NCBI GenBank assembly: GCA_030146615.1
Contig: JASLBL010000245.1
Location: 1-58,678 of the forward strand
Reading direction: 5' to 3'
Source of the DNA: Actinomycetes bacterium
GTDB lineage: Bacteria; Actinomycetota; CALGFH01
Length of the DNA stretch: 58,678 bases
Position numbers and translations under genes: made by a program. Below, piece by piece: positions 4,374-49,081 of this stretch. How positions within the stretch are numbered: the first letter of the stretch is position 1; every line of letters begins with the position of its first letter. The notes below the pieces were generated by a model. That model was not told the DNA's origin. It made no database searches and was given only the letters and a program-made list of their open reading frames with translations.

Positions 4374-4396
4374 CTCCGGATCTCCTCGCTCGCCGC

Positions 4397-7818: not shown

Positions 7819-7852
7819 CGCCCTACCTCCTCGGACAACGTTTGCCGGGGTC

Positions 7853-7881: not shown

Positions 7882-7973
7882 CGCGGGTCGATCGCTCAAG
7901 GTCGAAAAGCGACCTAAAAGGCGGTTAGATGGTTGAATATCGAACCGAACCCCGAGGGCCTGGGAGGCGGCGG

Positions 7974-8438
7974 ATGCAGCGGAGCAGGGGGCCGGTGGAT
8001 GAGGTGGACCGGGAGATCATCCGGTTGCTGCAGCGGGACGGGCGGACCAGTAACACCGATATCGCCAGGGCGCTGGAGGTGACCGAGACGACGATCCGCA
8101 AGCGGATCGCCCGGCTGATCGACGAGGACCTGGTGAACGTGGTGGCGGTGCCGACGCCGCGGGCGGTGGGGATGACCCTGTCGGCGATCATCGGGATCTC
8201 GGTGCAGCTGCCCAGCCTCCAGGCGGTGTCGGAGCGGCTGGTGGCCTACCCCGAGGTGCGATACGTGGGGATCGCGACCGGGCGCTACGACATCATCGTC
8301 GAGTCGTTCTTCAACGACCACGAGCACCTGCTGGAGTTCGTCTCCCGCAAGCTGGGGGCGCTCAAGGGGGTGACCGGCGCCGAGACCAGCCTGATCCTCA
8401 AGGTGGCCAAGTTCTCCTATGAGTGGGAGATCCCCTGA
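7974..8438 (+). CDS. Lrp/AsnC family transcriptional regulator
   Basis: ATG 7974 is preceded by GGGAGG. HTH segment: DREIIRLLQRDGRTSNTDIARALEVTETTIRKRIARL. It is followed by an AsnC-type ligand domain. Divergent from the permease operon. Confidence 0.85.
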   Translation: MQRSRGPVDEVDREIIRLLQRDGRTSNTDIARALEVTETTIRKRIARLIDEDLVNVVAVPTPRAVGMTLSAIIGISVQLPSLQAVSERLVAYPEVRYVGIATGRYDIIVESFFNDHEHLLEFVSRKLGALKGVTGAETSLILKVAKFSYEWEIP

Positions 8439-8444
8439 GGGCGC

Positions 8445-9620: not shown

Positions 9621-9957
9621 GGGCAACCCCCATCTGGCAGAGCGTGAAGCTGGAAGCCTACCCGCTCGAGGGAACCAGACCGCCGGGGCCGGTGCCCGTC
9701 CTACCGGCCGGGGGTGCCGGTCCGGGAGGTGGTCGGCCAGGGGCACGTGCTCACCGGCGCCGACGGCGGCTACCGGTTCCAGAGCGACCCGCCCGAGCAC
9801 ATCCACATGCTCGTCTCGGCCGAGGGGTTCGAGCCGCTGGCCAGCAACCGCTACCACCCCGAGGGCAGGTCTGCCGGCCGCTTCGACGTCCTGCTCACGC
9901 CGGCCCGGTCCTGACGGTTGGCGGGTGGCGGCGGCCCTCGGGTAACGTCCTGCCCTT

Positions 9958-10779
9958 GTGAAGGACCCGATCTCGCCGATGGAGTGGCATCCCGGCCCCG
10001 GGGCGGAGGAGCTCATCCGCCGCAAGGCGCAGCTCCACGTGCTCTCCAAGGAGCTGCTGGACCGCGAGCGCGGCCTGGCCGCCTTCCGCAACGAGCTGCA
10101 CGCCTTCGAGACCAGCTACCGCAAGGCGCTCGGCTCCCGCTACGCCCGGCTCGACGAGCTGGCCGAGCGGCTGGACGAGACGGCCGCGCCCGGCCAGGAC
10201 CCCGGGCAGCCCGATCCCGACGGCGACGACCCGGCCGAGCGCTACCCCGGCCAGGGCGTGCCCGGCGGCCAGAACTGGGCCTGGGGGGAGCGCGAGCCGG
10301 ACAGGGAGCCGGAGCGGCGGCCGGTGATCGGCGACGAGGCCAAGCGGCTGTTCCGCCAGCTGGCCCGCCTCATCCATCCCGACCTGGCCGGCGACCCCAA
10401 GGAGCGGGAGCGGCGGACCAACCTGATGGTGGCGGCCAACGACGCCTACGAGCAGGGCGACGTGGCCGCCCTGGAGCGCATGCTGGCCGACTGGCACGCC
10501 AGCCCCGAGGCCGTGACCGGCAGCGGGGCCGCGGCCGAGCTGGAGCGGACGCTGCGCCGCATCGCCCAGGTCGAGGCGGGCATCAAGCGGATCGACGAGG
10601 AGCTGGCCGAGCTGGAGGCCTCGGCCATGGGCTGGCTGCGGCGCCGGGTCGAGAAGGCCGCCCACGAGGGCTGGGACCTGCTGGCCCACATGGTCAGGGA
10701 GCTGGACCGACAGATCGGCGAGGCGCAGCTGGAGCTCGAGCGCCGGGCGGCCACGGCCACCGCCGGAGCGTGGGAATAG
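9958..10779 (+). CDS. J-domain (DnaJ-like) protein with flanking coiled coils
   Basis: GTG start. AKRLFRQLARLIHPDLAGDPKERERRTNLMVAANDAYEQGD contains the HPD tripeptide. There is no G/F or zinc-finger region. Flanking segments are heptad-like and charged. Confidence 0.7.
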   Translation: MKDPISPMEWHPGPGAEELIRRKAQLHVLSKELLDRERGLAAFRNELHAFETSYRKALGSRYARLDELAERLDETAAPGQDPGQPDPDGDDPAERYPGQGVPGGQNWAWGEREPDREPERRPVIGDEAKRLFRQLARLIHPDLAGDPKERERRTNLMVAANDAYEQGDVAALERMLADWHASPEAVTGSGAAAELERTLRRIAQVEAGIKRIDEELAELEASAMGWLRRRVEKAAHEGWDLLAHMVRELDRQIGEAQLELERRAATATAGAWE

Positions 10780-10843
10780 GGCCGCCCTCGCTGGGGTACG
10801 GTTGCGGCGACGCAGCCCCTGCGGACGACGGGGTGTGGGCACC

Positions 10844-12315
10844 ATGGCCAGGGACATCCAGGGCGGGCCCGGAGAGGCTCCCGACCACGGCGCGGTCGCG
10901 ACCACGTTCCCGACGAAGCACCTGCCGCCGGTCACCTACCGCGACATGCCCGAGCCGCTGTCGCTGCGCAAGGTCCTCGGCCCGGGCGTGATCGCGGCCG
11001 GGATCGGGCTGGCCTCGGGCGAGTTCATCCTCTGGCCCTACATCACCTCCCAGGTCGGGCTCGTCTTCCTGTGGGCCGCGCTCGTCGGGGTGGTGACCCA
11101 GTTCTTCATCAACATGGAGTCGAGCGCTACACCCTGGCCACCGGCGAGACCGCCCTGACCGGGTTCAGCCGCTACTGGAAGCACTGGGGGCTGTTCTTCG
11201 CCGTGCTGACCTTCCTGGCCAACGCCTGGCCGGGGTGGATCACCAGCTCGGCCACGCTGGTCACCTTCATCTTCGGCGGCGGCAACGTGAAGCTGCTGGC
11301 CATCCTCGGGCTGGCCTCGATCGCCATCGCCCTGACCATGGCCCCGGTGGTCTACACCATGGTCGAGCGGATCGAGTTCTTCAAGGTCGGGATCATCCTG
11401 TTCTTCATCGTGGTCGCCATCGCCACCGCGATCACCGCCGAGGCCTGGGGCGCCCTGCCAGACGCGGTCACCAACTTCGGCCGCCTGCCCGCGGGCCTGC
11501 CCCTTGCCCTGGTCCTGCCGGCTCTGGCCTTCGCCGGGGCGGGGGGCGGCCAGAACCTGGTCCAGAGCAACTGGATGCGCGACAAGGGCTACGGCATGGG
11601 GGTCCACATCCCCCGGCTGGCCTCGCCGGTCACCGGCGAGCCCGAGGCCGCCCCGGGCACCGGCTACACCTTCCGCGAGGACGAGACCAACCTGGCCCGC
11701 TGGAAGGGCTGGTGGGACGTTGCCAACAAGGAGCAGCTGGTCAGCTTCGTGGCCATCACGATCGTCACCATCGCGCTGATGTCGATGCTGGCCTACTCGA
11801 CCGTGTTCGGCGCCGAGGCCGAGAACAACATCACCTTCCTGGAGGCCGAGGGCAACGTCCTCAAGGACACCGTCGGGACCTGGTTCGGCTACCTGTTCTG
11901 GATCATCGGCGCGACCTCGCTGTTCGCCGCCGCCCTCGGGATCGTCGACTACACCTGCCGGCTGGTCGCCGACGTGCTCAAGGTCAGCTACCTGCGCGAG
12001 AACGAGACCTGGACCGAGAGCCGCATCTACTTCCTGCTGGTCTGGCTGCTGGTCGTCTGGAGCGCGATCATCCTGCTGACCATCCAGTCGCAGCCGCTGA
12101 TCCTGCTGATCATCTCCGCCTCCATCGGCGGGTTCATGATGTTCGTCTACTCGGGCCTGCTGATCCTGATCAACAAGCGGTCGCTGCCGCCCTCGGTCCG
12201 GATCAACGGCTTCCGCACGGCGACCATGATCTGGTCGGTGCTGCTGTTCGGGACCGCCTCGGCGATCGCCATCAGCGACCAGTGGGACAACATCAAGGAG
12301 CTGTTCGGCCTCTAA
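10844..12315 (+). pseudogene. Nramp-family divalent metal transporter, interrupted by a 1-nt frameshift near 11119/11120
   Basis: ORF 10802..11158 carries the N-terminus (GPGVIAAGIGLASGEFILWPYITSQVGLVFLWAALVGVVTQFFINME). ORF 11071..12315 continues in the -1 frame (ERYTLATGETALTGFSRYW...). Inserting one base after ATGGAG restores FFINMEIERYTLATGE and a protein of about 490 aa. Confidence 0.7.
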
Positions 12316-34337: not shown

Positions 34338-34516
34338 CTCTGCGGTCCTCCATGACCTCGACGTTCAGCTCCCAGCCTAGGACGATGCCCCGGCAACGGC
34401 ATCGGGTATCGGCCCGCGATTCGCCGCGGCCGGGTCAGGGTCGCCTCAGGGACATCCCCGATACGCGGCTCGCGGAGCATGTTCCCTTGGCGGCCGCTTG
34501 GTATGCTCCGGCCGCG

Positions 34517-35542
34517 ATGCAGCCGAACCCGACGCTGGCCGACCAGGTCAGCCGGCTCTATGACCTGATCGCCGGCTACCACGCCACCCACCTGCTCGAG
34601 ATCGCGCGCGAGCTGGGTGTCTGGGAGGAACTGACCCGGAGCCCGGGTCTGGCTTCGGGCGCGCTCGCCGACCGGCTGGGCACGGACCCGTTCTACACCG
34701 ACGTGCTCTGCCGCACCGCGTTCTCCTTCGGCCTGCTGGAGCGCCAGGGCGCCGGCTGGCGCATGGCCCCGCACTTCGACCAGATCCTGGGGAACCCCGA
34801 GTCGAGCTTCTACCTGGCCTGCGCCCCGCGGGTCCACATGGTGCTCGGGGAGGACTACCGCGACTACCCCCGCCACTTCCGGGCCGGGACGACCAGGTCC
34901 TACCAGGAGCACGACGAGCAGTTCATGCGCGAGGTCGCCGAGGCGCTGAAGGCGCTCCCGCGTATCTTCGTCGACCTGGTGCTGCCGCGCCTGCCCGGCC
35001 TGAGCGCGCGGCTGGAGGGCGGCGGCCGGCTGCTGGACGTCGGCTGCGGCGGCGGCTGGGCGGTGGTGCAGCTGGCCGAGCGGTTCCCCGAGATCTCCTG
35101 TGTCGGGATCGACCTGGAGCCCTACTCGGTCGAGCTGGCTCGGCGGCTGATCGACGAGCGCGGCCTGGCCGGCCGCTGCCAGGCCCGCCTCCAGAGCGCT
35201 GACCAGCTCGGCGAGGACGGGACCTACGACGTGGCCACCAGCTTCCTGGTCGTGCACGAGATCGCCCCGGCGGCCAAGGCGGGGGCGTTCGCGGCGGTGG
35301 CCAGGGCGCTGAAGCCCGGCGGCTACTTCCTGATCTTCGACGAGACCTACCCGGAGACCGACGAGGCGCTCCAGACGATGCCGTCCCGCTTCGCCGCCCT
35401 GGCCCAGTGGTACGAGCTCACCTGGGGCAACATCGTCGGCACGCGGTCCGAGCTGCACGCCCTCTGCCAGGAGGCCGGCCTCCGGGTCGCCGAGGAGACC
35501 AGCTTCTCGCGCTTCAGCATCCTCGTCGCGGCCAAGCCGTAG
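34517..35542 (+). CDS. class I SAM-dependent methyltransferase with N-terminal winged-helix/dimerisation domain
   Basis: ATG 34517. SAM motif I LLDVGCGGGW, and acidic motif II region FLVVHE. Confidence 0.75.
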   Translation: MQPNPTLADQVSRLYDLIAGYHATHLLEIARELGVWEELTRSPGLASGALADRLGTDPFYTDVLCRTAFSFGLLERQGAGWRMAPHFDQILGNPESSFYLACAPRVHMVLGEDYRDYPRHFRAGTTRSYQEHDEQFMREVAEALKALPRIFVDLVLPRLPGLSARLEGGGRLLDVGCGGGWAVVQLAERFPEISCVGIDLEPYSVELARRLIDERGLAGRCQARLQSADQLGEDGTYDVATSFLVVHEIAPAAKAGAFAAVARALKPGGYFLIFDETYPETDEALQTMPSRFAALAQWYELTWGNIVGTRSELHALCQEAGLRVAEETSFSRFSILVAAKP

Positions 35543-35550
35543 CCGCGGCG

Positions 35551-36132
35551 TCAGGGGGTGGTCGGGGTCTCCGGCTGGCTGTCGAGGACCCGCTTGGCGA
35601 TCTCGGCCAGGGGGAGCTGGCGGTCCATGGCCGCCCGGCGCATGCGGGTGTAGGCCTGGTCCTCGGTGAGGCCGAACTGCTCCATGAGCCGGCCCTTGGC
35701 CTTCTCGATCACCTTGCGGGCGGCCAGCTTGGACTCCAGGTCGTCGACCGTGCCCTGGAGCTCGCGGCGGTCGGCCGCCCTGGCCAGGGCGACGTTCACC
35801 CCGGCCAGCAGCTGGGCCGGCTGGAACGGCTTGACCAGGTAGCCGATGGTGCCGGCGTCGGCCGCCTCCTCGACCAGCTCCTTGTCGGAGAAGGCGGTGA
35901 GAACGAGCACGGCCGGGCCCTCGGCGGTGATCTGGCGGGCCGCGGTCAGGCCGTCGACCTTGGGCATCTTCACGTCCATGACCACCAGGTCGGGACCGAG
36001 CTCGCGGGCCAGGCGCATCGCCTGCTCGCCGTCGCCGGCCTCGCCAACCACGGTGTGGCCGCCCTCCTCGAGGGTCTCGACGATGTCCACCCGGATCAGG
36101 ACCTCGTCCTCGGCGACGAGCACACGCGCCAT
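35551..36132 (-). CDS. pdtaR: ANTAR-domain response regulator (PdtaR-like)
   Basis: ATG 36132 is preceded by AAGGAG. Receiver: MARVLVAEDE, LVVMDVKMP, LVKPF. ANTAR helices: LESKLAARKVIEKAKGRLMEQFGLTEDQAYTRMRRAAMD. It lies 59 nt downstream of gltB on the same strand. Confidence 0.85.
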   Translation of the reverse strand: MARVLVAEDEVLIRVDIVETLEEGGHTVVGEAGDGEQAMRLARELGPDLVVMDVKMPKVDGLTAARQITAEGPAVLVLTAFSDKELVEEAADAGTIGYLVKPFQPAQLLAGVNVALARAADRRELQGTVDDLESKLAARKVIEKAKGRLMEQFGLTEDQAYTRMRRAAMDRQLPLAEIAKRVLDSQPETPTTP

Positions 36133-36191
36133 CCTGCTCCTTCCACCACGAACGTCGGGTAGGCATCGTAGCCCGGAAGCTGGCTGGCGGG

Positions 36192-39100
36192 TCATGCGGT
36201 TCCCTCGTGGGCGCGCTCGATGGCCGCGACCTCAGCCCGGGGCGCGACCCGCCAGAACGCGGCGTAGGAGCGGTCCCAGCTGTCCAGGATCTCCCCAGCC
36301 ACCGCCGAGCCGGTCAGCTCGTGGTGGGCGACGATCAGCTCGCGCAGGAACACCAGCTCGAACTCGTCCGGCCGCACCGGCTGCACCAGCTCGTCGTTCA
36401 GCTGGTCGAGGGCCCGGCCATCGGGGTCGTAGAGGAACAGCTCGCCGCCGGTCATGCCGGCTCCCAGGTTGCGGCCGACCGGCCCGAGCACGATCACCGA
36501 CCCGCCGGTCATGTACTCGCCGGCGTGGTCGCCGACGCCCTCGACCACCGCCGTGGCCCCCGAGTTGCGCACCGCGAACCGCTCCCCGGCCCGCCCGGCG
36601 CAGAACAGCTCGCCCCGGGTCGCCCCGTACAGGGCGGTGTTGCCGATCAGGACGGGCGTGCCGGCGTCGTCGGCCGGGGGGCGGACGACGATGCGGCCGC
36701 CGCCCATGCCCTTGCCGACGTAGTCGTTGCAGACGCCGGTGAGCCGTAGGTCGATCCCGGGGGCCAGGAACGCGCCGAAGCTCTGCCCGGCCGTCCCCTC
36801 GAGCTCGATCCGGGCCCGCCCGGCCGGCGGCCGCGAGCCGAAGGCGGCCCCGACGGCCACCCCGAGGCGGGCCCCGACCGCCCGGTCGGTGTTGCTGATC
36901 GGGTACTGGAGGTGGACCAGGCCGCCGTCGCGCAGCCCCGGCCAGGCCTCGTCGTGGACCCGGTCGCCGAGCTCGGAGCGGGGGCGCTGGATCGGGTCGG
37001 AGGCCACGAACCGCGTCGCCGGGACCTCGCCGTCGTCGCCTTCGGCCCCGATGGCCAGCAGCGGCGACAGGTCGAGACTGTCGGCCCGGGCGTCGCCGGT
37101 GCGGCGCTGGGCCAGCAGGTCGACCCGGCCGACGGCCTCGTCCAGGCTGCGCAGCCCCAGGGAGGCCAGCAGCTCCCTGGTCTCCTGGGCCACGTACTCG
37201 AGGTAGTGGACGACCATGTCCGGGGTGCCGGTGTACTTGGCCCGGAGATCGGGCCGCTGGGTGGCGATCCCGACCGGGCAGTTGTCCTGGTGACAGGTCC
37301 GGACCATCAGGCAGCCCTCGGCCAGCAGGGCGGCGGTGCCGAAGCCGAACTCGTCCGCCCCCAGCAGGGCCGCCACCAGCACGTCCCGGCCGGTCTTGAA
37401 GCCGCCGTCGACCCGGACCTTGCAGCGCGAGCGCAGGTTGTTGGCCACCAGGGCCTGCTGGGTCTCGGCCAGGCCCAGCTCCCAGGGGGCACCGCCGTGC
37501 TTGATCGAGGACAGCGGGCTGGCCCCGGTGCCGCCGTCGGCGCCGGAGATCATGACCACGTCGGCCAGCGACTTGACCACCCCGGCGGCGATCGTGCCCA
37601 CCCCGGCCTCGGCGACCAGCTTCACCGACACCTCGGCCTCGGGGTTGGCCTGCTTCAGGTCGAACACCAGCTGGGCCAGGTCCTCGATGGAGTAGATGTC
37701 GTGATGCGGCGGAGGCGAGATCAGCGCCACCCCGGGCTGGGTGTGCCGCAGGCGGGCGATCTCGGCCGACACCTTGTGACCGGGCAGCTGGCCCCCCTCG
37801 CCCGGCTTGGAGCCCTGGGCGATCTTGATCTGGAGCTCGACGGCGTTGGCCAGGTATGCCGGGGTGACCCCGAAGCGGCCGGAGGCGACCTGCTTGATGG
37901 CCGAGCTGCGCTCGGTGCCGAAGCGGGCCGGGTCCTCGCCGCCCTCGCCACAGTTGGACCGGCCCCCGACCCGGTTGAGGGCGATGGCCAGGGTCTCGTG
38001 GGCCTCCGGGGACAGCGACCCGAGGCTCATGGCCGCGGTCGAGAACCGGGCCATGATGTCGGCCGCCGGCTCGACCTCGTCCACCGGCACCGGCGGGCCG
38101 GCCGGACAGGTCGCCAGCAGGTCGCGCAGGGCGGCCGGGGGCCGCTCGTTGACCAGGCTGGCGAAGTGCTTGTAGCGCTCGAACCCGCCCCCCTTGACCG
38201 CCTGCTGGAGCAGGTGGGCGCCGCGCTTGGAGCCCTTCATCTCGGCCCCCTCGCGCACCGTGAAGTGCAGGGCCTGCATGACCTCGGGGTTGGTGGCGTG
38301 ATACTCGCCCCCGGGGCGGTGCTTGAACCAGCCGGGGTTCTCCAGCCGGGCCACCTCGGCCTGGCCGGCCCGGTGGCGCTCCAGGGCGTCGGCGGCCAGC
38401 TCGTCGAGGCCGATCCCGCCGAGGGGGGACGGGGTGCCGGCGAAGCAGAGGTCGACGACCTCCTCGTCCAGGCCGACGGCCTCGAAGATCTGCGCCCCCC
38501 GGTAGGCGTCGAGCACCGAGATGCCCATCTTGCTCATGACCTTGAACACGCCCTCGGTGAGGGCGCCCCGGTAGCGGTCCTGGGCGGCCGCCGGGTCCTG
38601 GTCGAGGGTGGCCGCCGCGGCCAGGGTGAGCCGGGGGCAGACGGCGTCGGCCCCGTAGCCGAGCAGGGCGGCCGCGTGGTGGGAGTCGACCGGCTCCCCG
38701 GTGTCGGCGACCACGCCGGTCCTGGTGGCCAGGCCCTCCCGGAGCAGCCGCTGCTGCACCGCCCCGACGGCCAGCAGCGACGGCACCGGCACAGCCCCGT
38801 TCAGCTCGTCGGCGGCGGCGTCGGAGACGACCAGCAGGCAGGCGCCGTCGCGCACGGCCGCCACCGCCTCGTCGCCGAGGCGCAGGCAGGCCGTCCGCAG
38901 CCCGCCCGGGCCCTCGTCCGCCGGCCAGGTGGCGTCCAGCACCCGCGGGCACAGCCCGAGGTCCGGGTCCTGGAGGGCCTCCAGCCCGTCGGGGGTGAGG
39001 ACGAAGCCGTCCAGCTCCAGCATCCGGGCCGCCTCCGGCTCCTCGCTGAGCAGCGGGTGGCGGCAGCCGAGCAGGGTCCGGCTGGACAGCACGTGGCGCT

Positions 39101-40676
39101 CGCGCAGGTGGTCGATGGGCGGGTTGGTGACCTGGGCGAAGCGCTGGCGCAGGAAGTGGCCGACCGGGCGGGTGGTGGCCCCGAGCACGGCCGGGGGCGT
39201 GTCGTCGCCCATGGAGGCGGTCGGCTCCTTGCCGGCGGTGGCCATCGGCCGCAGCACGGTGGTGACCAGCTCCCGGGTGAACCCGAAGATGGCCTGGGTG
39301 GCGACGGCGCGGCGCTCGTCGGCGGGCGGATCGACCGGCCGGCCGGCGTCGATGGTCGACAGATTTTCGGCCACCCAGGCGCTCCAGGGCCGGCTGGCGG
39401 CCAGCTCCTCCTTGATCTGCTCGTCGGTGAGCAGGCCCCGCTCGGGGTCGACGCAGAGCATCTGCCCCGGCCCGAGCCGGCCCCGCCGCACCCGGCCGCG
39501 GCCGGCGGTGTCGACCGCGCCGGCCTCCGAGGCGCAGACGACCAGGCCGTCCTCGGTCGCCTCCCAGCGCATCGGCCGCAGCCCGTTGCGGTCCAGGGCG
39601 GCCCCGACCAGGCGGCCGTCGGTGAACACCAGCCCGGCCGGGCCGTCCCAGGGCTCGGTCAGGCAGGCGTGGTAGCGGTAGAAGTCGCGCAGGTCCTGGC
39701 GGTCGTCGCCGGCCAGCGGCTCGACCGCCGGGACCAGCATGGCCAGGGCGTGGCGGAGGTCCCGGCCGCCCCTGACCAGCAGCTCCACCGCGTTGTCGAG
39801 CTTGGCCGAGTCGGAGCCGTCGGGGTCGAGCACCGGCCGCAGCAGCTCCTCGTCCAGCTCGCCGGCGCCTAGACGCCCCTCCCTCGCCCGCATCCAGGCC
39901 ACGTTGCCGTCGAGGGTGTTGATCTCGCCGTTGTGGCAGAGGAAGCGGAACGGCTGGGCCCGCTCCCAGGAGGGTGCGGTGTTGGTCGAGTAGCGCTGGT
40001 GGAACACGGCGAAGGCGACCTCGAAGGCGGGGTCGGCCAGGTCGGGGTAGAAGGCGGCGAGCTGGTCGGCCGCGCACAGCGCCTTGTAGGTCACGGTCCG
40101 GGTCGAGCAGGAGGCCAGGTACAGGCCGACCTCGGCCTGCCGGGCGGCCAGGGCGGCCCGCCGCCCGGCCCGGAAGCAGCGCCGCTCGGCCTCCTCGGAG
40201 TCGGTGTCGACCTGGAAGATGGCCTGCTCGATGGCGGGCGCGTTCGAGCGGGCCACGTCGCCAAGGGCCGCCAGGTCGACTGGGACCGGCCGCCAGCGGA
40301 GCAGCTCCAGCCCCTCGGCGACCAGGGCCTGCTCGACCAGCCGGCGGGACTCCTTGGCCTCCTCGGGGTCGCGGGGCAGGAAGGCCATGGCCACCCCGAG
40401 CCGGCCGCGGCGGCCTTCGGCCTGGGGACCGGCGAAGAACGCCTCGGGCAGCGGGAGCAGGACGCCGGCGCCGTCGCCGGTGCGGGCGTCGGCGGCGACC
40501 GCGCCTCGGTGCCGGAGCCGCTCCAGCCCGGCGACGGCCGCGTCCAGGACGGCCCGGCCGGGGCGGCCGTGCACGTCGGCCACGAAGCCGATGCCGCAGG
40601 CGTCGCGCTCGTCGCGCCGCCGGTCGTACAGGGCCCGGCCGTTGCGGCCGGTGCCTTGCAGGAGGTGGTCCGTCAT
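36192..40676 (-). CDS. gltB: glutamate synthase large subunit
   Basis: ATG 40676 is preceded by GGAGG. Ntn-amidotransferase Cys in RDERDACGIGFVA, FMN/Fe-S central domain, C-terminal GXGXG beta-helix (AVVEGVGDHAGEYMTGG). 1,494 aa. No gltD is adjacent. Confidence 0.9.
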   Translation of the reverse strand: MTDHLLQGTGRNGRALYDRRRDERDACGIGFVADVHGRPGRAVLDAAVAGLERLRHRGAVAADARTGDGAGVLLPLPEAFFAGPQAEGRRGRLGVAMAFLPRDPEEAKESRRLVEQALVAEGLELLRWRPVPVDLAALGDVARSNAPAIEQAIFQVDTDSEEAERRCFRAGRRAALAARQAEVGLYLASCSTRTVTYKALCAADQLAAFYPDLADPAFEVAFAVFHQRYSTNTAPSWERAQPFRFLCHNGEINTLDGNVAWMRAREGRLGAGELDEELLRPVLDPDGSDSAKLDNAVELLVRGGRDLRHALAMLVPAVEPLAGDDRQDLRDFYRYHACLTEPWDGPAGLVFTDGRLVGAALDRNGLRPMRWEATEDGLVVCASEAGAVDTAGRGRVRRGRLGPGQMLCVDPERGLLTDEQIKEELAASRPWSAWVAENLSTIDAGRPVDPPADERRAVATQAIFGFTRELVTTVLRPMATAGKEPTASMGDDTPPAVLGATTRPVGHFLRQRFAQVTNPPIDHLRERHVLSSRTLLGCRHPLLSEEPEAARMLELDGFVLTPDGLEALQDPDLGLCPRVLDATWPADEGPGGLRTACLRLGDEAVAAVRDGACLLVVSDAAADELNGAVPVPSLLAVGAVQQRLLREGLATRTGVVADTGEPVDSHHAAALLGYGADAVCPRLTLAAAATLDQDPAAAQDRYRGALTEGVFKVMSKMGISVLDAYRGAQIFEAVGLDEEVVDLCFAGTPSPLGGIGLDELAADALERHRAGQAEVARLENPGWFKHRPGGEYHATNPEVMQALHFTVREGAEMKGSKRGAHLLQQAVKGGGFERYKHFASLVNERPPAALRDLLATCPAGPPVPVDEVEPAADIMARFSTAAMSLGSLSPEAHETLAIALNRVGGRSNCGEGGEDPARFGTERSSAIKQVASGRFGVTPAYLANAVELQIKIAQGSKPGEGGQLPGHKVSAEIARLRHTQPGVALISPPPHHDIYSIEDLAQLVFDLKQANPEAEVSVKLVAEAGVGTIAAGVVKSLADVVMISGADGGTGASPLSSIKHGGAPWELGLAETQQALVANNLRSRCKVRVDGGFKTGRDVLVAALLGADEFGFGTAALLAEGCLMVRTCHQDNCPVGIATQRPDLRAKYTGTPDMVVHYLEYVAQETRELLASLGLRSLDEAVGRVDLLAQRRTGDARADSLDLSPLLAIGAEGDDGEVPATRFVASDPIQRPRSELGDRVHDEAWPGLRDGGLVHLQYPISNTDRAVGARLGVAVGAAFGSRPPAGRARIELEGTAGQSFGAFLAPGIDLRLTGVCNDYVGKGMGGGRIVVRPPADDAGTPVLIGNTALYGATRGELFCAGRAGERFAVRNSGATAVVEGVGDHAGEYMTGGSVIVLGPVGRNLGAGMTGGELFLYDPDGRALDQLNDELVQPVRPDEFELVFLRELIVAHHELTGSAVAGEILDSWDRSYAAFWRVAPRAEVAAIERAHEGTA

Positions 40677-40746
40677 CTCGCCTCCGAAAGCACTGCTGGA
40701 GCGGCGGACGCCAGGACCCGGGTGGACAACGATGTCCAGGGACACG

Positions 40747-40776
40747 AAAACGGCGCCGCCTGGGGCGAGCGCCGTT
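40747..40776 (-). terminator. intrinsic-terminator-like hairpin plus U4 between the giant gene and gltB
   Basis: mRNA sense AACGGCGC-U-CGCC-CCA-GGCG-GCGCCGUU followed by UU(CG). This is a 12-bp GC-rich stem with one bulge. It is either the terminator of the upstream operon or an attenuator in the gltB leader. Confidence 0.5.
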
Positions 40777-40791
40777 GCTCTTCGAACACTG

Positions 40792-40820
40792 AGCGTACGG
40801 AGGCTGGTCCGGCGCGTCAA
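40792..40820 (-). promoter_or_regulatory. candidate gltB promoter
   Basis: Minus-sense TTGACG (40820-40815), exactly 17 nt, then TACGCT (40797-40792; TAnnnT). It lies upstream of the hairpin at 40747..40776. Confidence 0.45.
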
Positions 40821-40859
40821 CAGCCGGTCGGCCTGGCCGGCGGGCGGCCGGGAAGGACC

Positions 40860-43800
40860 CTACCCGTCGCGGGCCGTCCTCTGCCGCCAGGCGACCACGG
40901 CGCCGGCCCCGGCGGCCAGGAGCAGCAGCGCCAGCGCCCCGCCGACCAGCCGCAGGAGCGGGGCCGGGTCGAGCCGGATCTCGGCCGGCCCGGCGGGCAG
41001 TCCGGGCACCGGCTCCGGCCGCATGGCCTGCCTCGGGACCAGGCCGAGGCGCACGGCCAGCTGGCCGAGGGCGGCCGGTCGGACGGGGCCGCCGTCGGCC
41101 GGCAGCTCCAGCACCGCCCGCTCGAACGGCTGGCGCATGGCCCCGTCCGGCATGATCTGGGGCAGGCCGAGCGGGCGCCCGAACCGGTCGCGGGCCCGCG
41201 CGAAGTCCTCGGCCGTCGCCGTCGCCGGGTCGGTGCCCAGGTAGGCGCGGGCGATCAGCTCCTCACGGAGCAGGGCCCGGGTCTGCCGGTTGGTGACCGG
41301 CGGGGCGGTCGACGGCAGCGGGATGTCGGCGTCGGCCACCGCCTCGACGTCCAGCTTGGCGAGCAGGGGCGGCAGCTCGATCGGCCGCACGGCCGGCGGG
41401 CCGCCGGCGGTCGGGACCGCCCCCAGGACCATGGTGTCGAACGCCTGGAGGGCCGGGCCGTCGCTGGTCCAGACCGACCCCAGCGGGCGGCCGAGGACGG
41501 CCTTGCCGCCGACCGACCGGTAGGCGCTGTGGAACGTGCCGGCCTGGCTGTCCACCACCCGGTAGCCGCCGCAGGCCGAGCCGGTGGTGTTGGAGAACAC
41601 CCCGTCGGGCAGCGGCAGGAGGTCGGCCACGGGGTCGAGCGGGGCGGCGTCGACGCGCCACAGCTCCACCCCGGACAGGCTGCGGGACGGGTGCGCGGCC
41701 AGCCTGGTCCCGTGCTGGCGGACCCAGGCGGCCAGCGACGGGGTCAGGGGGCCCTGGGCGGTCCCGCCGGTCAGCACGAAGTAGCGGACGCCGGCGGCGT
41801 GGGCGGCCGGCCCGCTGGAGAACTCGGTCACGGTGACGCCGGCGGCCAGCAGCCGGGCCCGGTCGTCGGGGCCGCTGGCGTTGACCGCCGAGCACTCCGG
41901 AACCTCGGCGCCGACCGTCGCCACCAGGCGCCCGAGGCCGTCGTCGGCCTGCCCTCCGTACCGGCCGGCCCAGTTGACCGCCTGGGCGGCGAGCAGCCCC
42001 ACGAGCACGACCCCGGCCCCGGCGAGGGCAGCCCGCCGGGCCTGCTGGGTGGCGCCGGCCGCGACCAGCGTCACCGCCGCCACGGCCACGGAAACGGCCG
42101 CGGCGGGCACGGCGAACGGGAGGGCCTGCTCGGCCGGGTACCCGAGGGCGATCGCGGCCAGCGCCCCGGCCGCCGAGGTCGCCGACCAGGCGAGCAGCCG
42201 GGCCGCCCCTGGGCCGGCATCCGACCTGGCGCCGGACCGGTGGCGCCAGGTCAGGATGGCGGCGGCCAGGCCGGCGGCGACCAGCAGCCAGGTCAGGGGA
42301 GCGCCGGCCAGCGACGCGGCCACCGACCCGCGCCCCTGGGGCCGGCCGAGCAGCCACCCGGCCTGCCCGGCCCCCAGGTCCTGGCCCGCCACCCAGACCG
42401 GCAGGAGCAGCCAGAGGCCGATGGCCAGCCCGAGCGCGGCCATGTCCTTCCAGGCCTCCTGGTAGCGCCCATGGAGCAGCTCGGCGACCACGGGCACGGC
42501 CAGCACCGGCAGGGCCAGCGGGCTCACCAGCAGGGCGAGCCCACCCCCGGCGGCCACCAGCGGCAGCCAGCGCAGAACCGGCCGCGCCGGCACCCCCCAG
42601 GCCAGAGCGACCGTGCCCACCGCGAGGAGCACGGCCAGCACGGTCCCGGTCGCCGCCCGTCCGCTCTGCACCACCAGCGGGTCCAGCGCCACCAGCGCCC
42701 CTGCCAGCGCCGCTCCTCCCAGCCGCCACAGCCGGCCCGGCCGTCCTCCTTGCGGCGGGGCCGGACCCGGCCCGGCCGCCGCACCGGAACCGGGCCCGAC
42801 CCGCATAAGCAGCAGGAAGAGCGCCACCGTCAGACCAACCACACCCGCCAGCAGGAACCGGCTCGGCACCCTCGCCTCCCGGACCACCGCCTCCAGCGAC
42901 CCCCCAGCCTCGGTCGCCCGCAGCCAGATCCCAGCCCCCAGCGCATACACCGGCTCGATCGGCCCAACCCTGGGGTCCTGCACCACCAGCCCGCCCCCAC
43001 TCCCCCCGGCAGCCCTCACCACCGCCACCTCACCCGCCCGGGTGTCAGCCCCGCCAGCTCCAACCCACCCGGCGGCCCCCACGGCCAGCACCGCCATGAG
43101 CAAAGCAACCACGGCGGGTCGAGCCACCCGCCCACCGGCATCCGCAGTCGGCGTCGCACCCGCCGCCGCGTCCGCCGCAACCTTCGCCCGCCGCGCTTCG
43201 TCCCGTGCCGTCCTCCGGGCCGCCCGCTCCCGAGCCGCCTCCGCCCGGGCTAGTTCCCGAGCCTCGGCCTTCGCCGCCTTGTCCTGCCGGGACTGCTCCC
43301 GCTTCACCCGGTTCTCGACAGCCTTCGCCTGAGCGGCGGCGGCCCGCTCCGCCGTACGCGCCTCGGCTTGAGCCGCCTTCACCCGCTCGGCCTCCATCTG
43401 CGCCGACTTGCGGGCCTCGGCCCTCGCCTGCGCGGCAGCGGCCCGGGCCGCCCGCCGCTCCTCCGCCTTTGCCGCTCGCACCTGCCCGGCCTCCGCACGG
43501 GCGATCCGCCGTGCCTCGGCCTCGATGGCCTTCGCCTTGGCTGCCTCCGCCTGCTCCGCCTTCCGAGCCTCGGCCTCCGCGGCCCGTGCCTGCTCGGCCT
43601 CACGACGGGCGGCCGCCTTCGCCTCCTCCTGCGCCGCCTTGGCCTGGGCGGCGGCGGCGCGGGCCGTCCGCCGCTCCTCCGCTCGGGCCGCCTTCGCCTG
43701 GCTGGCCTCCGCGCGCGCGGCCGCCTGGGCCTCGGCCTTGGCCGCCTTCGCCTGCTGGGCCTGCTGGCGGCGAACCTCGGCCTCTGCCGCCCGCTTCGCC

Positions 43801-47638: not shown

Positions 47639-49081
47639 ATGACTGACGTTGCCCCACCGGTGCGGCGCCGGCTCTCCGACGACGCGATCGAGCACCTCCA
47701 CAGCCTGATGGCGGGCTGGCAGCTGATCGCCGACCTCGCCTTCGCCGACCTGCTGCTGTTCCTGGCCGTGGAGGGCAGCGAGAGCTTCCGCATCGTCGGC
47801 CAGCTGCGCCCCTACACGGCCCGTACCCTGTACCCGGCCGACCTGGTCGGCGAGGTGGTCGAGCCGACCTGGCACCCGTATGTGGAGCGGGCCTGGCGGG
47901 AGGGGCGGCGCCAGCGCTCGCTGGAGCCGATCCTGATCGACGCCGAGCCGGTCCGGGTCGAGACCGTGCCCGTCCGGCACCAGGGCGAGATCGTGGCCGT
48001 GCTCAGCGTCGAGGCGCCCGAGACCCCCGCCCGCCCCACCGGACGGCTGGAGGCGGCCTACCTGGGCGCGGCCGAGGCCCTGCTGGAGATGGTGGCCACC
48101 GGCGCCTTCCCGTTCGTCGAGGCCACCGACCCGACGGCCTCCCCCCGGGTCGGCGACGGCCTGGTCGTGCTCGACGCCAGCGGCCGGGTCGAGTTCGCCA
48201 GCCCCAATGCCACCTCGGCCTTCCGGCGCATGGGCACCAACGCCCTGCCGCTCGGCCAGCCGCTCCCCCACCGGGCGGCCATCCTGGTCGCCGAGGCGAT
48301 GGCCGGCGGCCGCCCGGTCGAGTCCGAGATCGACGCCGCCGGGGCGGTCACCGACGTCCGGGTGGTCCCGCTGCTGCGGGGCGCCGACCGCCGCGGGGCC
48401 CTGGTGCTGGTCCGGGAGGCGACCGAGCTACGCCGACGCGACCGGGTCATCTCCCGGCGCGAGGCGACCATCCGCGAGGTCCACCACCGGGTCAAGAACA
48501 ACCTCCAGACGGTCGCCTCCCTGCTCCGGCTCCAGGCCCGCCGGCTCGGCGACCACCCGCAGGCGGTGGCCGCCCTGGAGGACTCGGTGCGCCGGATCAC
48601 CTCGATCGCGCTGGTCCACGAGACCCTGACCGAGGAGTTCGAGGGCGCGGTGGACATGGCCGACGTCGCCCGGCGGATCGTCAAGATGCTGGCCGGCTCG
48701 CTCGGCCGCGAGGACGCTCACATCGAGCTGCACACGGCCTCGGTGCCGGTGGACGCGGCCGTGGCCACCCCGCTGGCGGTGGTGCTGAACGAGCTGGTCC
48801 AGAACGCGATCGAGCACGGCCTGGGTGACGGGCGCGGGACGGTCACGGTCGAGCTGCGCGGCGGCGGGAACGAGCCGGTGGTGCTCCAGGTCCACGACGA
48901 CACCGGCTCCGGTAAGGATGCGGAGCAACCGGCCATCCACAGCCCCGAGGGCGGGCTTGGCCTGCGCCTGGTCAGGGCGCTGGTCCAGGAGGAGCTGAAC
49001 GGCCAGTTCACGCTGTCCCACCCGGCCGGGCGGGGAAGCATCGCCACCGCCATTGTCCCGCCGGTCGAACGAAAGGCCTGA
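47639..49081 (+). CDS. pdtaS: cytoplasmic GAF/PAS sensor histidine kinase (PdtaS-like)
   Basis: No TM segment. H-box IREVHHRVKNNLQTVASLLRLQ (HisKA_2 type), N-box LNELVQNAIEHG, G-box GGLGLRLV. Confidence 0.85.
   Translation: MTDVAPPVRRRLSDDAIEHLHSLMAGWQLIADLAFADLLLFLAVEGSESFRIVGQLRPYTARTLYPADLVGEVVEPTWHPYVERAWREGRRQRSLEPILIDAEPVRVETVPVRHQGEIVAVLSVEAPETPARPTGRLEAAYLGAAEALLEMVATGAFPFVEATDPTASPRVGDGLVVLDASGRVEFASPNATSAFRRMGTNALPLGQPLPHRAAILVAEAMAGGRPVESEIDAAGAVTDVRVVPLLRGADRRGALVLVREATELRRRDRVISRREATIREVHHRVKNNLQTVASLLRLQARRLGDHPQAVAALEDSVRRITSIALVHETLTEEFEGAVDMADVARRIVKMLAGSLGREDAHIELHTASVPVDAAVATPLAVVLNELVQNAIEHGLGDGRGTVTVELRGGGNEPVVLQVHDDTGSGKDAEQPAIHSPEGGLGLRLVRALVQEELNGQFTLSHPAGRGSIATAIVPPVERKA

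What the first reader, a model, noticed from the sequence alone, without database searches (positions are those of the whole stretch)
40677..40820. Terminator-like hairpin and an A..G hexaloop hairpin in the gltB leader, with an ANTAR regulator encoded just downstream
Between the giant-gene stop (40860) and the gltB ATG (40676) I see a good promoter match: TTGACG-17 nt-TACGCT at 40820..40792. It is followed about 15 nt later by a 12-bp GC hairpin ending in UUUU (40776..40747). Next comes a small hairpin GGAC-AUCGUU-GUCC (40737..40724) whose hexaloop has A at position 1 and G at position 4.
Established knowledge: ANTAR regulators bind hexaloop hairpins with exactly these two conserved positions, normally as a tandem pair, to prevent terminator formation or to affect the RBS. 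The ANTAR response regulator pdtaR lies 59 nt after gltB on the same strand with no obvious terminator between them, so a feedback loop is conceivable.
Caveats: I found only one hexaloop hairpin, and it lies after the terminator-like stem rather than overlapping it. The stem may also simply terminate the upstream operon.
Basis: partly seen in the sequence, partly recalled or inferred. Interest (0 to 1): 0.6.

Follow-up and report, generated by a model that had tools for sequence, protein, structure and literature searches.

The report
ANTAR-type attenuator before glutamate synthase
The short stretch in front of the glutamate synthase gene of this uncultured soil actinobacterium is a conserved "stop unless a protein binds" transcription switch. 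It is of a type already shown to work in Geobacter, and is most likely read by the PdtaR regulator encoded right after the gene. It is therefore a new example of a known mechanism, and it links the PdtaS/PdtaR signalling pair to nitrogen assimilation.

Summary
These are the promoter (40820..40792), the 12-bp GC hairpin plus UUUU (40776..40747), the hexaloop hairpin GGAC-AUCGUU-GUCC (40737..40724), and pdtaR 59 nt after gltB.

The 14-mer GAGC-AACGGC-GCUC (40780..40767) can form a second A1/G4 hexaloop mini-hairpin that overlaps the 5' foot of the terminator.

A covariance model of this 14-mer plus terminator gave hits in 123 of 401 sampled genomes of the phylum, usually one per genome. Of the 70 best hits, 65 lie directly upstream of gltB. 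Most of the others precede split glutamate synthase + glnA operons.

The terminator stem covaries. The core GC-AANGGC-GC equals the experimentally shown binding site (CAGGCAANGGCGCC) of the phosphorylated REC-ANTAR regulator GnfR at premature terminators of Geobacter nitrogen genes.

A PdtaR-type REC-ANTAR gene sits next to the leader or operon in three separate families. One of these has the classical dual-hairpin ANTAR layout.

Verdict: a GnfR/ANTAR-type antitermination attenuator of gltB-pdtaR (confidence 0.7). It is a new member of a known kind with an unusual placement of the second hairpin.

The parts
40792..40820 (-). Promoter: -35 TTGACG (40820..40815), 17-nt spacer, -10 TACGCT (40797..40792). 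The inferred transcription start is about 40786..40784, 4-6 nt before the conserved element.
   Evidence: Sequence. TTGACG-17/18-TANNNT is conserved in 18/19 family leaders, 7-12 nt before GAGC. In other families a TANNNT lies 7-13 nt before GAGC in 28/44 leaders. It is not flagged by the E. coli-type scan. The start site is inferred, not mapped.
40767..40780 (-). P(T): proposed antiterminator and regulator-binding mini-hairpin GAGC-AACGGC-GCUC. It has a 4-bp stem and a hexaloop with A1 and G4. It overlaps the 5' arm of the terminator.
   Evidence: Unique in the window's own genome.

Conservation over 69 leaders:
- GAGC is 68-69/69 conserved, although it is outside the terminator stem.
- Loop positions: A1 65/69 (G in 4), A2 69/69, N3 free, G4 69/69, G5 69/69.

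Free energy is -4.0 kcal/mol alone, against -20.8 for the terminator.

Covariation:
- None phylum-wide.
- Compensatory AAGC...GCUU in two families.
- GCGAGC/GCUCGC versus GUGAGC/GCUCAC in family f57.

The core GC-AANGGC-GC is identical to the GnfR site CAGGCAANGGCGCC.
40747..40776 (-). T: intrinsic-terminator-like hairpin (12 bp, one bulged U, loop CCA) with a UUUU run. It acts as an attenuator inside the gltB leader.
   Evidence: Folding. Covariation on 69 leaders: 93% of cells are paired, 4 pairs show double changes, and 0/500 shuffles reach the observed score. The apical part varies from a 3-nt loop to 30-nt extensions while the arms stay complementary. 50/69 leaders have a U-run of 4 or more, with a median of 6 U in 9 nt.
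40723..40738 (-). Hairpin B: UGGAC-AUCGUU-GUCCA, an ANTAR-like hexaloop (A1, G4; closing pairs AC...GU). It lies 28-29 nt after P(T) and downstream of the terminator. It occurs only in the window's own family.
   Evidence: Present with A1/G4 kept in 15 of 19 family leaders. Stems vary: GGAC/GUCC, GAGAC/GUCUC, GAGAGAC/GUCUCUC, GGGGGAC/GUCCCCC. RNAalifold recovers it. 97.5% of cells are paired and 0/500 shuffles reach the covariation score. It is absent from leaders of other families. Its role is inferred.
40679..40710 (-). Possible helix that sequesters the Shine-Dalgarno sequence: CGUC (40710..40707) pairs with GGCG (40682..40679), which overlaps the SD GGAGG (40685..40681).
   Evidence: Predicted by RNAalifold on 18 family leaders. 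The pairs are invariant or change on one side only, so covariation neither supports nor refutes the helix.
36192..40676 (-). gltB, glutamate synthase large subunit (1494 aa). This is the regulated gene. It is single-copy in the assembly.
   Evidence: Pfam domains. Single copy.
35551..36132 (-). pdtaR orthologue (REC + ANTAR response regulator, 193 aa). It lies 59 nt after gltB. It is the proposed trans-acting antiterminator and is co-transcribed with its target.
   Evidence: Pfam Response_reg + ANTAR. The best solved-structure match is M. tuberculosis Rv1626 (1s8n), E 3.6e-48 over the full length. It lies directly after gltB in all 14 family loci that show the 3' flank.
47639..49081 (+). pdtaS orthologue (GAF_PdtaS-PAS-HisKA_2-HATPase kinase). 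It is the probable kinase that activates PdtaR.
   Evidence: Pfam PF12282 GAF_PdtaS 1.3e-35, HisKA_2 and HATPase_c. That it partners with PdtaR is inferred from the mycobacterial pair (PMC11537054).

Best explanation
The gltB leader is a protein-dependent transcription attenuator of the ANTAR/GnfR type.

Proposed sequence of events:
1. Transcription starts a few bases before 40780 from the conserved TTGACG-17-TACGCT promoter.
2. By default the nascent RNA folds into the strong terminator T (40776..40747), and most transcripts stop before gltB.
3. The first 14 transcribed conserved bases, GAGC-AACGGC-GCUC, can instead form a weak hexaloop mini-hairpin, P(T), which uses up the 5' foot of T.
4. 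When the REC-ANTAR regulator PdtaR is phosphorylated, probably by the nearby PdtaS kinase, it binds this hairpin as it emerges and holds it. T cannot form, and RNA polymerase reads into gltB and pdtaR.
5. Because pdtaR lies in the same transcript, read-through raises PdtaR itself, which gives positive feedback.

The second hexaloop hairpin, B (40738..40723), lies after the termination point. It cannot affect the termination decision kinetically. It may give the second subunit of the ANTAR dimer a docking site after read-through, to keep the leader open, stabilise it or help translation. It may instead serve another of the genome's many ANTAR proteins.

Status of each step:
- Shown: the anatomy, the conservation, the covariation of T and B, the link to glutamate synthase, and the gene linkage with REC-ANTAR.
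- Established elsewhere: binding of a phosphorylated REC-ANTAR regulator to the same core sequence in Geobacter.
- Inferred: the transcription start, termination in vivo, PdtaR as the binder here, the signal, and the role of B.
For: (1) The element is specific to glutamate synthase across the phylum.
- Model R1 gave hits in 123/401 sampled genomes, usually one per genome.
- 65 of the 70 best hits lie 30-250 nt upstream of gltB.
- Weaker hits also lie there.
- In families f57 and f5 it precedes split glutamate synthase (+ glnA) operons.

(2) T behaves as an RNA terminator.
- It covaries, with 0/500 shuffles reaching the observed score.
- Its apex is variable in length.
- U-runs of 4 or more occur in 50/69 leaders.

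(3) GAGC and the loop A-A-N-G-G-C are nearly invariant, although GAGC is outside T.
- P(T) is supported by AAGC...GCUU double changes in two families.
- It is also supported by GCGAGC/GCUCGC versus GUGAGC/GCUCAC in f57.

(4) The core GC-AANGGC-GC and the 3' arm GGGGCGCCUU equal the Geobacter sulfurreducens module. There, GnfK-phosphorylated GnfR (REC-ANTAR) binds CAGGCAA(N)GGCGCC and relieves premature termination (PMC2995071).

(5) A REC-ANTAR gene is linked to the element in three separate lineages.
- It lies directly after gltB in 14/14 loci of family f1.
- It lies directly upstream of the leader in 14/16 loci of f57.
- It is divergent and adjacent in one f3 genome.

(6) In f57 the layout is the classical ANTAR one. 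An upstream P1 hexaloop hairpin carries the same loop (AACGGC), with 6/7 pairs covarying. A linker of about 13 nt follows, then P2 overlapping the terminator.

(7) Every gltB-linked motif-positive genome has at least one ANTAR gene, except one assembly that is 63% complete. The base rate is 257/401.

(8) The adjacent regulator is the Rv1626/PdtaR orthologue, and a PdtaS-type kinase lies 7 kb away.

(9) P(T) alone (-4.0 kcal/mol) cannot compete with T (-20.8), so a bound factor is required.
Against: - No direct evidence for the transcription start, for premature 3' ends or for binding.
- The four core pairs of P(T) are invariant, so covariation does not support them phylum-wide. The proposed outer extension pairs no better than chance.
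- Four leaders of family f50 have G instead of A at loop position 1.
- Most families show only one hexaloop hairpin, whereas EutV needs two for good binding (PMC3369931).
- In the window the second hairpin lies 28-29 nt away, after the terminator. This is outside the published 2-25 nt linker range (PMC8164766). Its loop, AUCGUU, is unlike AANGGC.
- The window's U-run is short (4 U), and a subset of relatives has almost none (GUUCGUGCG).
- REC-ANTAR genes are not adjacent in most motif-positive families.
- The genome has 16 ANTAR-domain hits, so the binder could be another paralogue.
- Glutamate synthase is absent from the published actinobacterial ANTAR-RNA catalogue.
Confidence: 0.7

Rival explanations
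1. The leader is a real gltB attenuator, but another factor controls the switch. That could be an unknown RNA-binding protein, a small RNA or a metabolite (for example glutamine or 2-oxoglutarate) acting on GAGCAANGGCGCUC. On this reading the neighbouring pdtaR is only co-expressed.
For: - REC-ANTAR genes are not adjacent in most motif-positive families.
- Only one hexaloop hairpin is present in most families.
- Loop position 1 is G in family f50.
- The P(T) stem lacks phylum-wide covariation.
- The published ANTAR-RNA searches did not find it.
Against: - The conserved core equals the experimentally bound GnfR (REC-ANTAR) site.
- Three independent gene linkages with REC-ANTAR exist.
- f57 has a classical dual-hairpin ANTAR layout with the same loop.
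- Fourteen conserved nucleotides are too few for a typical metabolite aptamer.
- No Rfam family matches.
Confidence: 0.17
2. The hairpin is simply the intrinsic terminator of the upstream DUF4397-sortase-giant-gene operon. The promoter match and hairpin B are then chance features.
For: - The hairpin lies 84 nt after the giant gene's stop, on the same strand.
- A..G.. hexaloop hairpins occur at chance frequency in the window.
- The promoter is not flagged by the consensus scan.
Against: - The element tracks glutamate synthase genes in many families with unrelated upstream genes.
- In one genome the upstream gene is divergent.
- The promoter between the stop codon and the hairpin is conserved in 18/19 family leaders.
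- GAGCAA, which lies outside the stem, is invariant.
- Hairpin B covaries.

The hairpin may additionally stop read-through from upstream. That does not explain its conservation.
Confidence: 0.04
3. The inverted repeat AACGGCGC...GCGCCGTT is a DNA operator for a dimeric transcription factor (a nitrogen regulator) that blocks elongation or initiation just downstream of the promoter.
For: - The repeat starts at about +5 to +10 relative to the inferred start site, a usual repressor position.
- The arms are nearly invariant in sequence.
Against: - The distance between the arms varies from 3 to more than 40 nt, and the intervening part stays self-complementary and covaries. This fits a hairpin, not a fixed-spacing operator.
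- U-runs follow the 3' arm in 50/69 leaders.
- The same sequence is bound as RNA by GnfR.
Confidence: 0.04
4. The 5'-proximal hairpin is a constitutive structure, such as an mRNA-stabilising 5' stem-loop or a processing signal, with no regulated switching.
For: - The hairpin sits at the extreme 5' end of the inferred transcript.
- Some relatives lack a U-run.
Against: - A stabiliser would not need the invariant GAGCAANGG sequence or a U-run.
- It would not be confined to glutamate synthase leaders, nor co-localise with REC-ANTAR genes.
Confidence: 0.05

Closest known systems
[quoted passage not shown]
   Same: - The regulator is a REC-ANTAR response regulator activated by a histidine kinase.
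- The targets are nitrogen-metabolism genes.
- A premature hairpin + T-run terminator sits in the leader.
- The recognition sequence CAGGCAANGGCGCC at the 5' foot of the terminator shares the 10-mer GC-AANGGC-GC with GAGCAANGGCGCUC here.
- The 3' arm GGGGCGCCTT equals the arm in many actinobacterial leaders.
   Different: - The phylum differs: Actinomycetota against Desulfobacterota.
- The target differs: gltB is not among the Geobacter targets named in the paper.
- The stem is GAGC/GCUC rather than GGC/GCC.
- The promoter is sigma-70/SigA-like rather than RpoN-dependent.
- The regulator is co-transcribed with its target.
- The kinase is a GAF/PAS PdtaS type, whereas GnfK has no sensor domain.
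- An extra downstream hexaloop hairpin B is present.
ANTAR-target dual-hexaloop antiterminator RNAs (EutV/eutP of Enterococcus faecalis, NasR/nasF, AmiR/amiE; Ramesh et al. 2012, PMC3369931; Walshe et al. 2022, PMC8934654)
   Same: - Small hairpins with hexaloops carrying A1 and G4.
- One hairpin is mutually exclusive with an intrinsic terminator.
- Closing pairs AC...GU occur in hairpin B and in the f57 P1, as in eutP P1.
- Ramesh et al. predicted ANTAR substrates at glutamate synthase genes of Desulfotomaculum.
   Different: - In the canonical layout a free P1 precedes a terminator-overlapping P2, with a 5-12 nt linker.
- In the window the 5' hairpin overlaps the terminator, and the second hairpin follows the terminator after 28-29 nt.
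- Most actinobacterial families have no second hairpin at all.
- Family f57 does have the canonical layout.
Mycobacterial PdtaS/PdtaR (Rv3220c/Rv1626) and actinobacterial ANTAR RNAs (Mehta et al. 2020; Mehta & Ramesh 2021, PMC8164766)
   Same: - The regulator is orthologous: the best structure match is Rv1626, E 3.6e-48.
- The kinase is PdtaS-type.
- The RNA sites are hexaloops with A1/G4.
   Different: - Mycobacterial targets mostly overlap the RBS and repress translation of lipid and redox genes.
- Here the site overlaps a terminator in a nitrogen-assimilation leader.
- Glutamate synthase is not in their catalogue.
- In mycobacteria pdtaS and pdtaR are unlinked, whereas here they bracket the locus.

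Membership tests
GnfR-type (REC-ANTAR) antitermination module | A conserved recognition sequence ...GCAANGGCGC... lies at, and overlaps, the 5' foot of a premature terminator in the leader. | tested here: met
   GAGCAACGGCGCUC at 40780..40767 overlaps the 5' arm of T. The consensus over 69 leaders is GAGC-[A A N G G C]-GCUC, against CAGGCAANGGCGCC in PMC2995071.
GnfR-type (REC-ANTAR) antitermination module | The leader holds a hairpin followed by a T-rich run (a Rho-independent terminator). | tested here: met
   The window has a 12-bp stem of -20.8 kcal/mol and a UUUU run. Covariation shows 0/500 shuffles reaching the observed score. U-runs of 4 or more occur in 50/69 relatives. The window's own U-run is short and fails the simple scan.
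GnfR-type (REC-ANTAR) antitermination module | The genome encodes a response regulator with receiver + ANTAR domains and a partner kinase. | tested here: met
   pdtaR lies at 36132..35551. pdtaS lies at 47639..49081. Linkage is conserved.
GnfR-type (REC-ANTAR) antitermination module | The regulator binds the site in a phosphorylation-dependent way and relieves termination. | not testable with these tools
   This needs EMSA and in vitro transcription.
ANTAR-target RNA (dual-hexaloop definition of Ramesh 2012 / Mehta & Ramesh 2021) | Two stem-loops, each with at least 3 bp and a hexanucleotide loop. | tested here: met
   P(T) has 4 bp + AACGGC. B has 4-5 bp + AUCGUU. The energy model prefers a tetraloop for B.
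ANTAR-target RNA (dual-hexaloop definition of Ramesh 2012 / Mehta & Ramesh 2021) | Both loops carry A at position 1 and G at position 4. | tested here: met
   The window has AACGGC and AUCGUU. In relatives, P(T) has A1 in 65/69 and G4 in 69/69. B keeps A1/G4 in all 15 family leaders where it is found.
ANTAR-target RNA (dual-hexaloop definition of Ramesh 2012 / Mehta & Ramesh 2021) | The linker between the two hairpins is 2-25 nt (5-12 nt in eut leaders). | tested here: not met
   The linker is 28-29 nt (40766..40739) and contains the 3' arm and U-run of the terminator.
ANTAR-target RNA (dual-hexaloop definition of Ramesh 2012 / Mehta & Ramesh 2021) | The 3' hairpin (P2) is the one that competes with the terminator, and a free P1 lies upstream. 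| tested here: not met
   In the window the 5' hairpin competes with T and the other hairpin lies downstream. No upstream hairpin fits between the promoter and GAGC. The feature is met in family f57 relatives.
ANTAR-target RNA (dual-hexaloop definition of Ramesh 2012 / Mehta & Ramesh 2021) | The stems are supported by covariation. | tested here: inconclusive
   B is supported. The core of P(T) is invariant and its extension is not supported phylum-wide. Compensatory changes occur in f8, f9 and f57.
Any Rfam family (riboswitch or other curated leader) | A match to a curated covariance model. | tested here: not met
   cmscan at E up to 10 over 40400..41100 gave only a chance mir-650 match (16 bits against a gathering score of 100).

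The most novel reading that the evidence does not exclude
The 14-mer hairpin plus terminator may be the ancestral, phylum-wide target of PdtaS/PdtaR. On this reading, the conserved physiological output of this two-component system in deep-branching Actinomycetota is control of ammonium assimilation (GOGAT, and GS in some lineages).

A single hexaloop hairpin at the extreme 5' end of the transcript, overlapping the terminator's foot, would then be sufficient for ANTAR antitermination. The second hairpin would be an optional affinity module that evolution has placed in different positions:
- upstream in f57;
- at the terminator apex in one genus of f9;
- downstream of the terminator in the window's family.
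Probability: 0.35. Interest if true: 0.65.

Novelty: new member of a known kind. Interest (0 to 1): 0.5.

Why it matters
The biological role and direct RNA targets of PdtaS/PdtaR are still unsettled. A 2025 review lists the target of Rv1626 as unknown. Reported mycobacterial targets concern lipid, redox and iron genes.

This leader offers a sharply defined, sequence-conserved and easily testable candidate target: a 14-nt hairpin plus terminator in front of glutamate synthase. It occurs in many uncultured and deep-branching Actinomycetota.

The leader also ties PdtaR to the one REC-ANTAR regulator whose binding site is known, GnfR of Geobacter.

It further shows that published dual-hairpin searches miss single-hairpin or re-arranged ANTAR leaders. 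ANTAR regulons in high-GC bacteria are therefore probably under-counted.

The model built here could annotate this leader in metagenomes.

Tried and rejected
- Rfam scan of the leader: nothing found.
- E. coli-type promoter and terminator scan: flags neither feature. The scan is not suited to high-GC actinobacteria.
- Exact look-up of GltB to name the organism: not on record.
Only 7 of 120 loci were gltB leaders: Nitriliruptorales, Nitriliruptoraceae, 'Actinomycetota bacterium', and one contig labelled Lysobacterales.
- Other copies of the 14-mer in the window's own genome: the five 1-mismatch sites all lack the hairpin and gene context, so they are taken as chance.
- Extension of the P(T) stem beyond 4 bp: pairing is no better than shuffles.
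- A second hexaloop hairpin in leaders of families other than f1, f57 and one f9 genus: none found, even with 3-bp stems and R at loop position 1.
- IRE-like reading of the conserved GCAGUGC near the SD: the flanks do not pair, so it was dropped.
- DNA-operator reading: rejected because the arm spacing is variable.
- The hit in a large-genome family (G150): only an ordinary terminator, not linked to gltB.
- The hairpin with an AACGGC loop inside pdtaS (48992..49009): it lies in coding sequence and is at chance level.
Full report
**1. What is in the window**

All coordinates below are read on the minus strand.

- The 1641-aa giant ORF ends at 40860 and gltB starts at 40676.
- GltB is complete, with GATase_2, Glu_syn_central, Glu_synthase and GXGXG domains. 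It is single-copy in this 6.4-Mb, roughly 90%-complete assembly.
- The 183-nt spacer reads, in order:
  - TTGACG (40820..40815), 17 nt, TACGCT (40797..40792);
  - 11 nt;
  - GAGCAACGGCGCUC (40780..40767);
  - a 12-bp hairpin with a bulged U, AACGGCGC(U)CGCC-CCA-GGCGGCGCCGUU (40776..40749), running into UUUU (40750..40747);
  - CGUGUCCC;
  - UGGAC-AUCGUU-GUCCA (40738..40723);
  - about 40 nt;
  - the SD GGAGG (40685..40681) and the ATG.
- The big hairpin is more stable than shuffles: -23.1 kcal/mol, z = -3.06.
- The small hairpin is not more stable than shuffles (z = -1.3). The energy model closes its A:U into a tetraloop.
- pdtaR (REC + ANTAR) starts 59 nt after the gltB stop, with no terminator between them.

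A..G.. hexaloop hairpins with stems of at least 4 bp occur at the chance rate in this window: 49 and 60 per strand, against about 58 in shuffles.

**2. Relatives change the picture**

Leaders of gltB were collected from 40 related genomes.

- The whole leader is conserved in the genus and family.
- One block is conserved even in other families of the phylum. It consists of GAGCAAYGGCGCUC, a complementary 3' arm GRGCGCC(G)UU, and a U-run.

A covariance model of this core (R1) was run over 401 genomes sampled from the phylum.

- It gave hits in 123 genomes, usually one per genome.
- Of the 70 best hits, 65 lie 30-250 nt upstream of a gltB start.
- Nine of eleven weaker hits that I checked also lie there.
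- Most of the exceptions precede operons for a split, archaeal-type glutamate synthase. In family f57 these encode a CCG/Fe-S protein, GATase_2, Glu_synthase, GXGXG and glutamine synthetase.

The element is thus a glutamate-synthase-specific leader, not a by-product of the upstream operon.

- In family f1, 18 of 19 leaders keep TTGACG-17/18-TANNNT 7-12 nt before GAGC.
- In other families a TANNNT lies 7-13 nt before GAGC in 28 of 44 leaders.
- The conserved block therefore sits at the very 5' end of the inferred transcript.
- In one genome the upstream gene is divergent.

Named carriers include Nitriliruptorales and Nitriliruptoraceae MAGs and several 'Actinomycetota bacterium' MAGs. Large-genome families in the sample gave no true hit.

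**3. The hairpin is an RNA terminator**

The evidence comes from 69 leaders.

- 93% of cells in the 11 modelled pairs are paired.
- Four pairs show changes on both sides. An example is loop position 3 with its partner: CG 40, AU 3, GC 1, UA 1.
- No shuffle out of 500 reaches the observed covariation.
- The apical part ranges from a 3-nt loop to 30-nt self-complementary extensions. This rules out a fixed-spacing DNA operator.
- Fifty of the 69 leaders have a U-run of at least 4 right after the stem, and many have 6-8.
- The window's version has only UUUU. One subgroup (GUUCGUGCG) has hardly any U-run, so the efficiency of termination probably varies.

**4.

GAGC lies outside the terminator stem, yet it is 68-69/69 conserved. 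The following six bases read A(65)/G(4)-A(69)-N-G(69)-G(69)-C(68).

GAGC pairs with GCUC, which gives a 4-bp hairpin with hexaloop AANGGC (A1, G4). This hairpin consumes the 5' foot of the terminator.

Alone it is worth -4.0 kcal/mol, against -20.8 for the terminator. Forcing it costs about 10 kcal/mol in the whole leader. It can therefore win only if a factor holds it.

Its four pairs are invariant, so phylum-wide counts neither support nor refute it. The outer extension I tried pairs no better than chance. Support comes from rare variants:
- AAGC...GCUU occurs in two leaders from different families, against a single uncompensated AAGC...GCUC.
- GGGC...GCUC (G:U) occurs in three leaders.
- In family f57, GCGAGC...GCUCGC alternates with GUGAGC...GCUCAC.

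**5. Who reads it**

Four lines of evidence point to a REC-ANTAR response regulator.

(a) The binding site is known from Geobacter sulfurreducens.
- The REC-ANTAR regulator GnfR binds RNA only when phosphorylated by GnfK.
- The bound RNA carries CAGGCAAGGGCGCC.
- The consensus CAGGCAANGGCGCC sits at the 5' side of, and overlaps, premature terminators in the nifH, nifEN, glnK and amtB leaders.
- The 3' arm there is GGGGCGCCTT (PMC2995071).
- The 10-mer GC-AANGGC-GC and the 3' arm are the same as in the actinobacterial element.

(b) Gene linkage is seen in three lineages.
- pdtaR follows gltB directly in all 14 f1 loci that show the 3' flank, with 76-98% protein identity.
- In f57 the regulator gene lies directly upstream of the leader in 14 of 16 loci from several genera. 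In two further loci an AmiC-like binding protein lies between them.
- In one f3 genome the regulator gene is divergent and adjacent.
- With one to a few ANTAR genes per 2-6 Mb genome, such adjacency in three lineages is far above chance. This is my estimate, not a formal test.

(c) Family f57 has the textbook ANTAR layout.
- An upstream P1 hairpin carries the same loop: CGGCAC-AACGGC-GUGCCG, CGGCUC-AACGGC-GAGCCG, CAGCAC-GAUGAC-GUGCUG and GUGACAC-GACGAU-GUGUCAC.
- Six of its seven pairs covary, and 0/500 shuffles reach the observed score.
- A linker of about 13 nt follows, then the terminator-overlapping hairpin.

(d) Co-occurrence and orthology also fit.
- All gltB-linked motif-positive genomes have an ANTAR gene, except one assembly that is 63% complete. 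The base rate is 257/401. Phylogeny weakens this argument.
- The window's regulator is the orthologue of M. tuberculosis PdtaR (Rv1626, 1s8n, E 3.6e-48).
- A kinase with the PdtaS-specific GAF domain lies at 47639..49081.

**6. Mechanism proposed**

- By default, transcription terminates at T.
- PdtaR~P binds the nascent 5' hexaloop hairpin and blocks T.
- Read-through then expresses gltB and pdtaR, which is positive feedback.
- Basal PdtaR would need leakiness at T, or an internal promoter. A TACGAT at 36170..36165 in the gltB-pdtaR spacer is a candidate, which I did not test.
- The signal is unknown. For mycobacterial PdtaS, c-di-GMP, heme/iron and other ligands have been reported.

**7. Hairpin B**

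- It exists only in family f1.
- A1 and G4 are kept in the 15 of 19 family leaders where B is detected, in loops AUCGUU, AUCGAU, ACCGUC, AACGUC, AUCGUG and ACCGCU.
- The three closing pairs GAC/GUC are invariant and the outer pairs covary.
- It is a real structure with ANTAR-like features. The closing AC...GU is shared with eutP P1 and with the f57 P1.
- It lies after the termination point, 28-29 nt from P(T). This is beyond the 2-25 nt linker used to define ANTAR targets. Its loop differs from AANGGC.
- It cannot take part in the termination decision.
- I rate it as a possible late docking site for the second ANTAR subunit, or a site for one of the other ANTAR proteins: the genome has 16 ANTAR hits. 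This is inference.
- A conserved CGUC/GGCG helix could mask the SD, but covariation gives no evidence for or against it.

**8. Comparison and novelty**

- The mechanism is that of GnfR and the ANTAR family.
- ANTAR control of glutamate synthase was predicted for Desulfotomaculum. Earlier AI notes of this scan describe similar leaders in other phyla, including forms with one hairpin. I treat those notes as leads only.
- Several things are new here:
  - the phylum;
  - the tie to PdtaS/PdtaR;
  - the breadth of conservation, with usually one copy per genome in front of gltB;
  - the re-arranged or missing second hairpin.
- The element is absent from Rfam, from the published actinobacterial ANTAR-RNA catalogue and from a 2025 review.
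- I file it as a new member of a known kind, the GnfR-type module. It does not meet the strict dual-hairpin ANTAR definition on linker length or on hairpin order.

**9. Limits**

- E-values from the short-calibrated model are rough.
- The alignment used for the terminator counts was fitted to that structure.
- The adjacency statistics are informal.

Noticed in passing
L248 (G273:C1) 2895..11400; also L254, L255, L268-L294: In family f57 (genomes of about 2 Mb) the gene order is REC-ANTAR gene, sometimes an AmiC-like Peripla_BP_6 gene, then promoter, dual hexaloop hairpins and terminator. A CCG/Fe-S protein, GATase_2, Glu_synthase, GXGXG and glutamine synthetase follow. This is a compact GS-GOGAT operon with split, archaeal-type glutamate synthase under a classical ANTAR leader.
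   Followed up: partly
window 36133..36191 (- strand): The gltB-pdtaR spacer has no hairpin or U-run. It contains TACGAT (36170..36165), with ATGACC 18 nt upstream. This may be an internal promoter giving basal pdtaR expression independent of the leader.
   Followed up: no
G000 (whole assembly): The window's genome has 16 ANTAR-domain matches, far more than most genomes of the phylum, many of which have exactly one. The RNA targets of the others are unknown.
   Followed up: no
L074, L077, L099, L101, L307 (family f50); L299: These gltB leaders carry G instead of A at loop position 1 (GAGC-GAYGGC-GCUC, GAGC-GAAGGC-GCUC). A1 is the residue held to be critical for ANTAR binding. The same substitution is seen in some f57 P1 loops (GAUGAC, GACGAU). 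It could mark a co-evolved change in the regulator.
   Followed up: no
L083, L085, L014/L263 (family f9, one genus): The apex of the long terminator is itself a hexaloop hairpin, CCCCG-[A/G]UCGAG-CGGGG, 4 nt after the GAGC-AAUGGC-GCUC hairpin. The antiterminated form would therefore show two tandem hexaloops with a short linker.
   Followed up: partly
window 40690..40700 and family leaders: A GCAGUGC block just upstream of the SD is conserved in most leaders of the genus and in some other genera. More distant family members have a small covarying hairpin at the same place (GCAG...CUGC, CGC...GCG). Its function is unknown.
   Followed up: no
L147 (JAXHNG010000005.1, 441-kb contig): A contig of a MAG labelled Lysobacterales carries an actinobacterial-type gltB leader (GAGCAACGGCGCUC...GUUCGUGCGUCC) and a GltB whose first 300 residues are 52% identical to the window's. 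The contig may be mis-binned or the MAG mislabelled.
   Followed up: no
window 48992..49009 (+ strand): The hairpin GAGCUG-AACGGC-CAGUUC has the same loop as the leader element. It lies inside the 3' end of the pdtaS coding sequence (...EELNGQF...). About 0.6 such hairpins are expected by chance in the window, so it is probably meaningless.
   Followed up: partly
window 36192..40676 and the rest of the strand: No gltD follows gltB. The operon is gltB-pdtaR and ends against a convergent methyltransferase gene (34352..35542, + strand). In f1 this gltB-pdtaR order is conserved across genera.
   Followed up: partly
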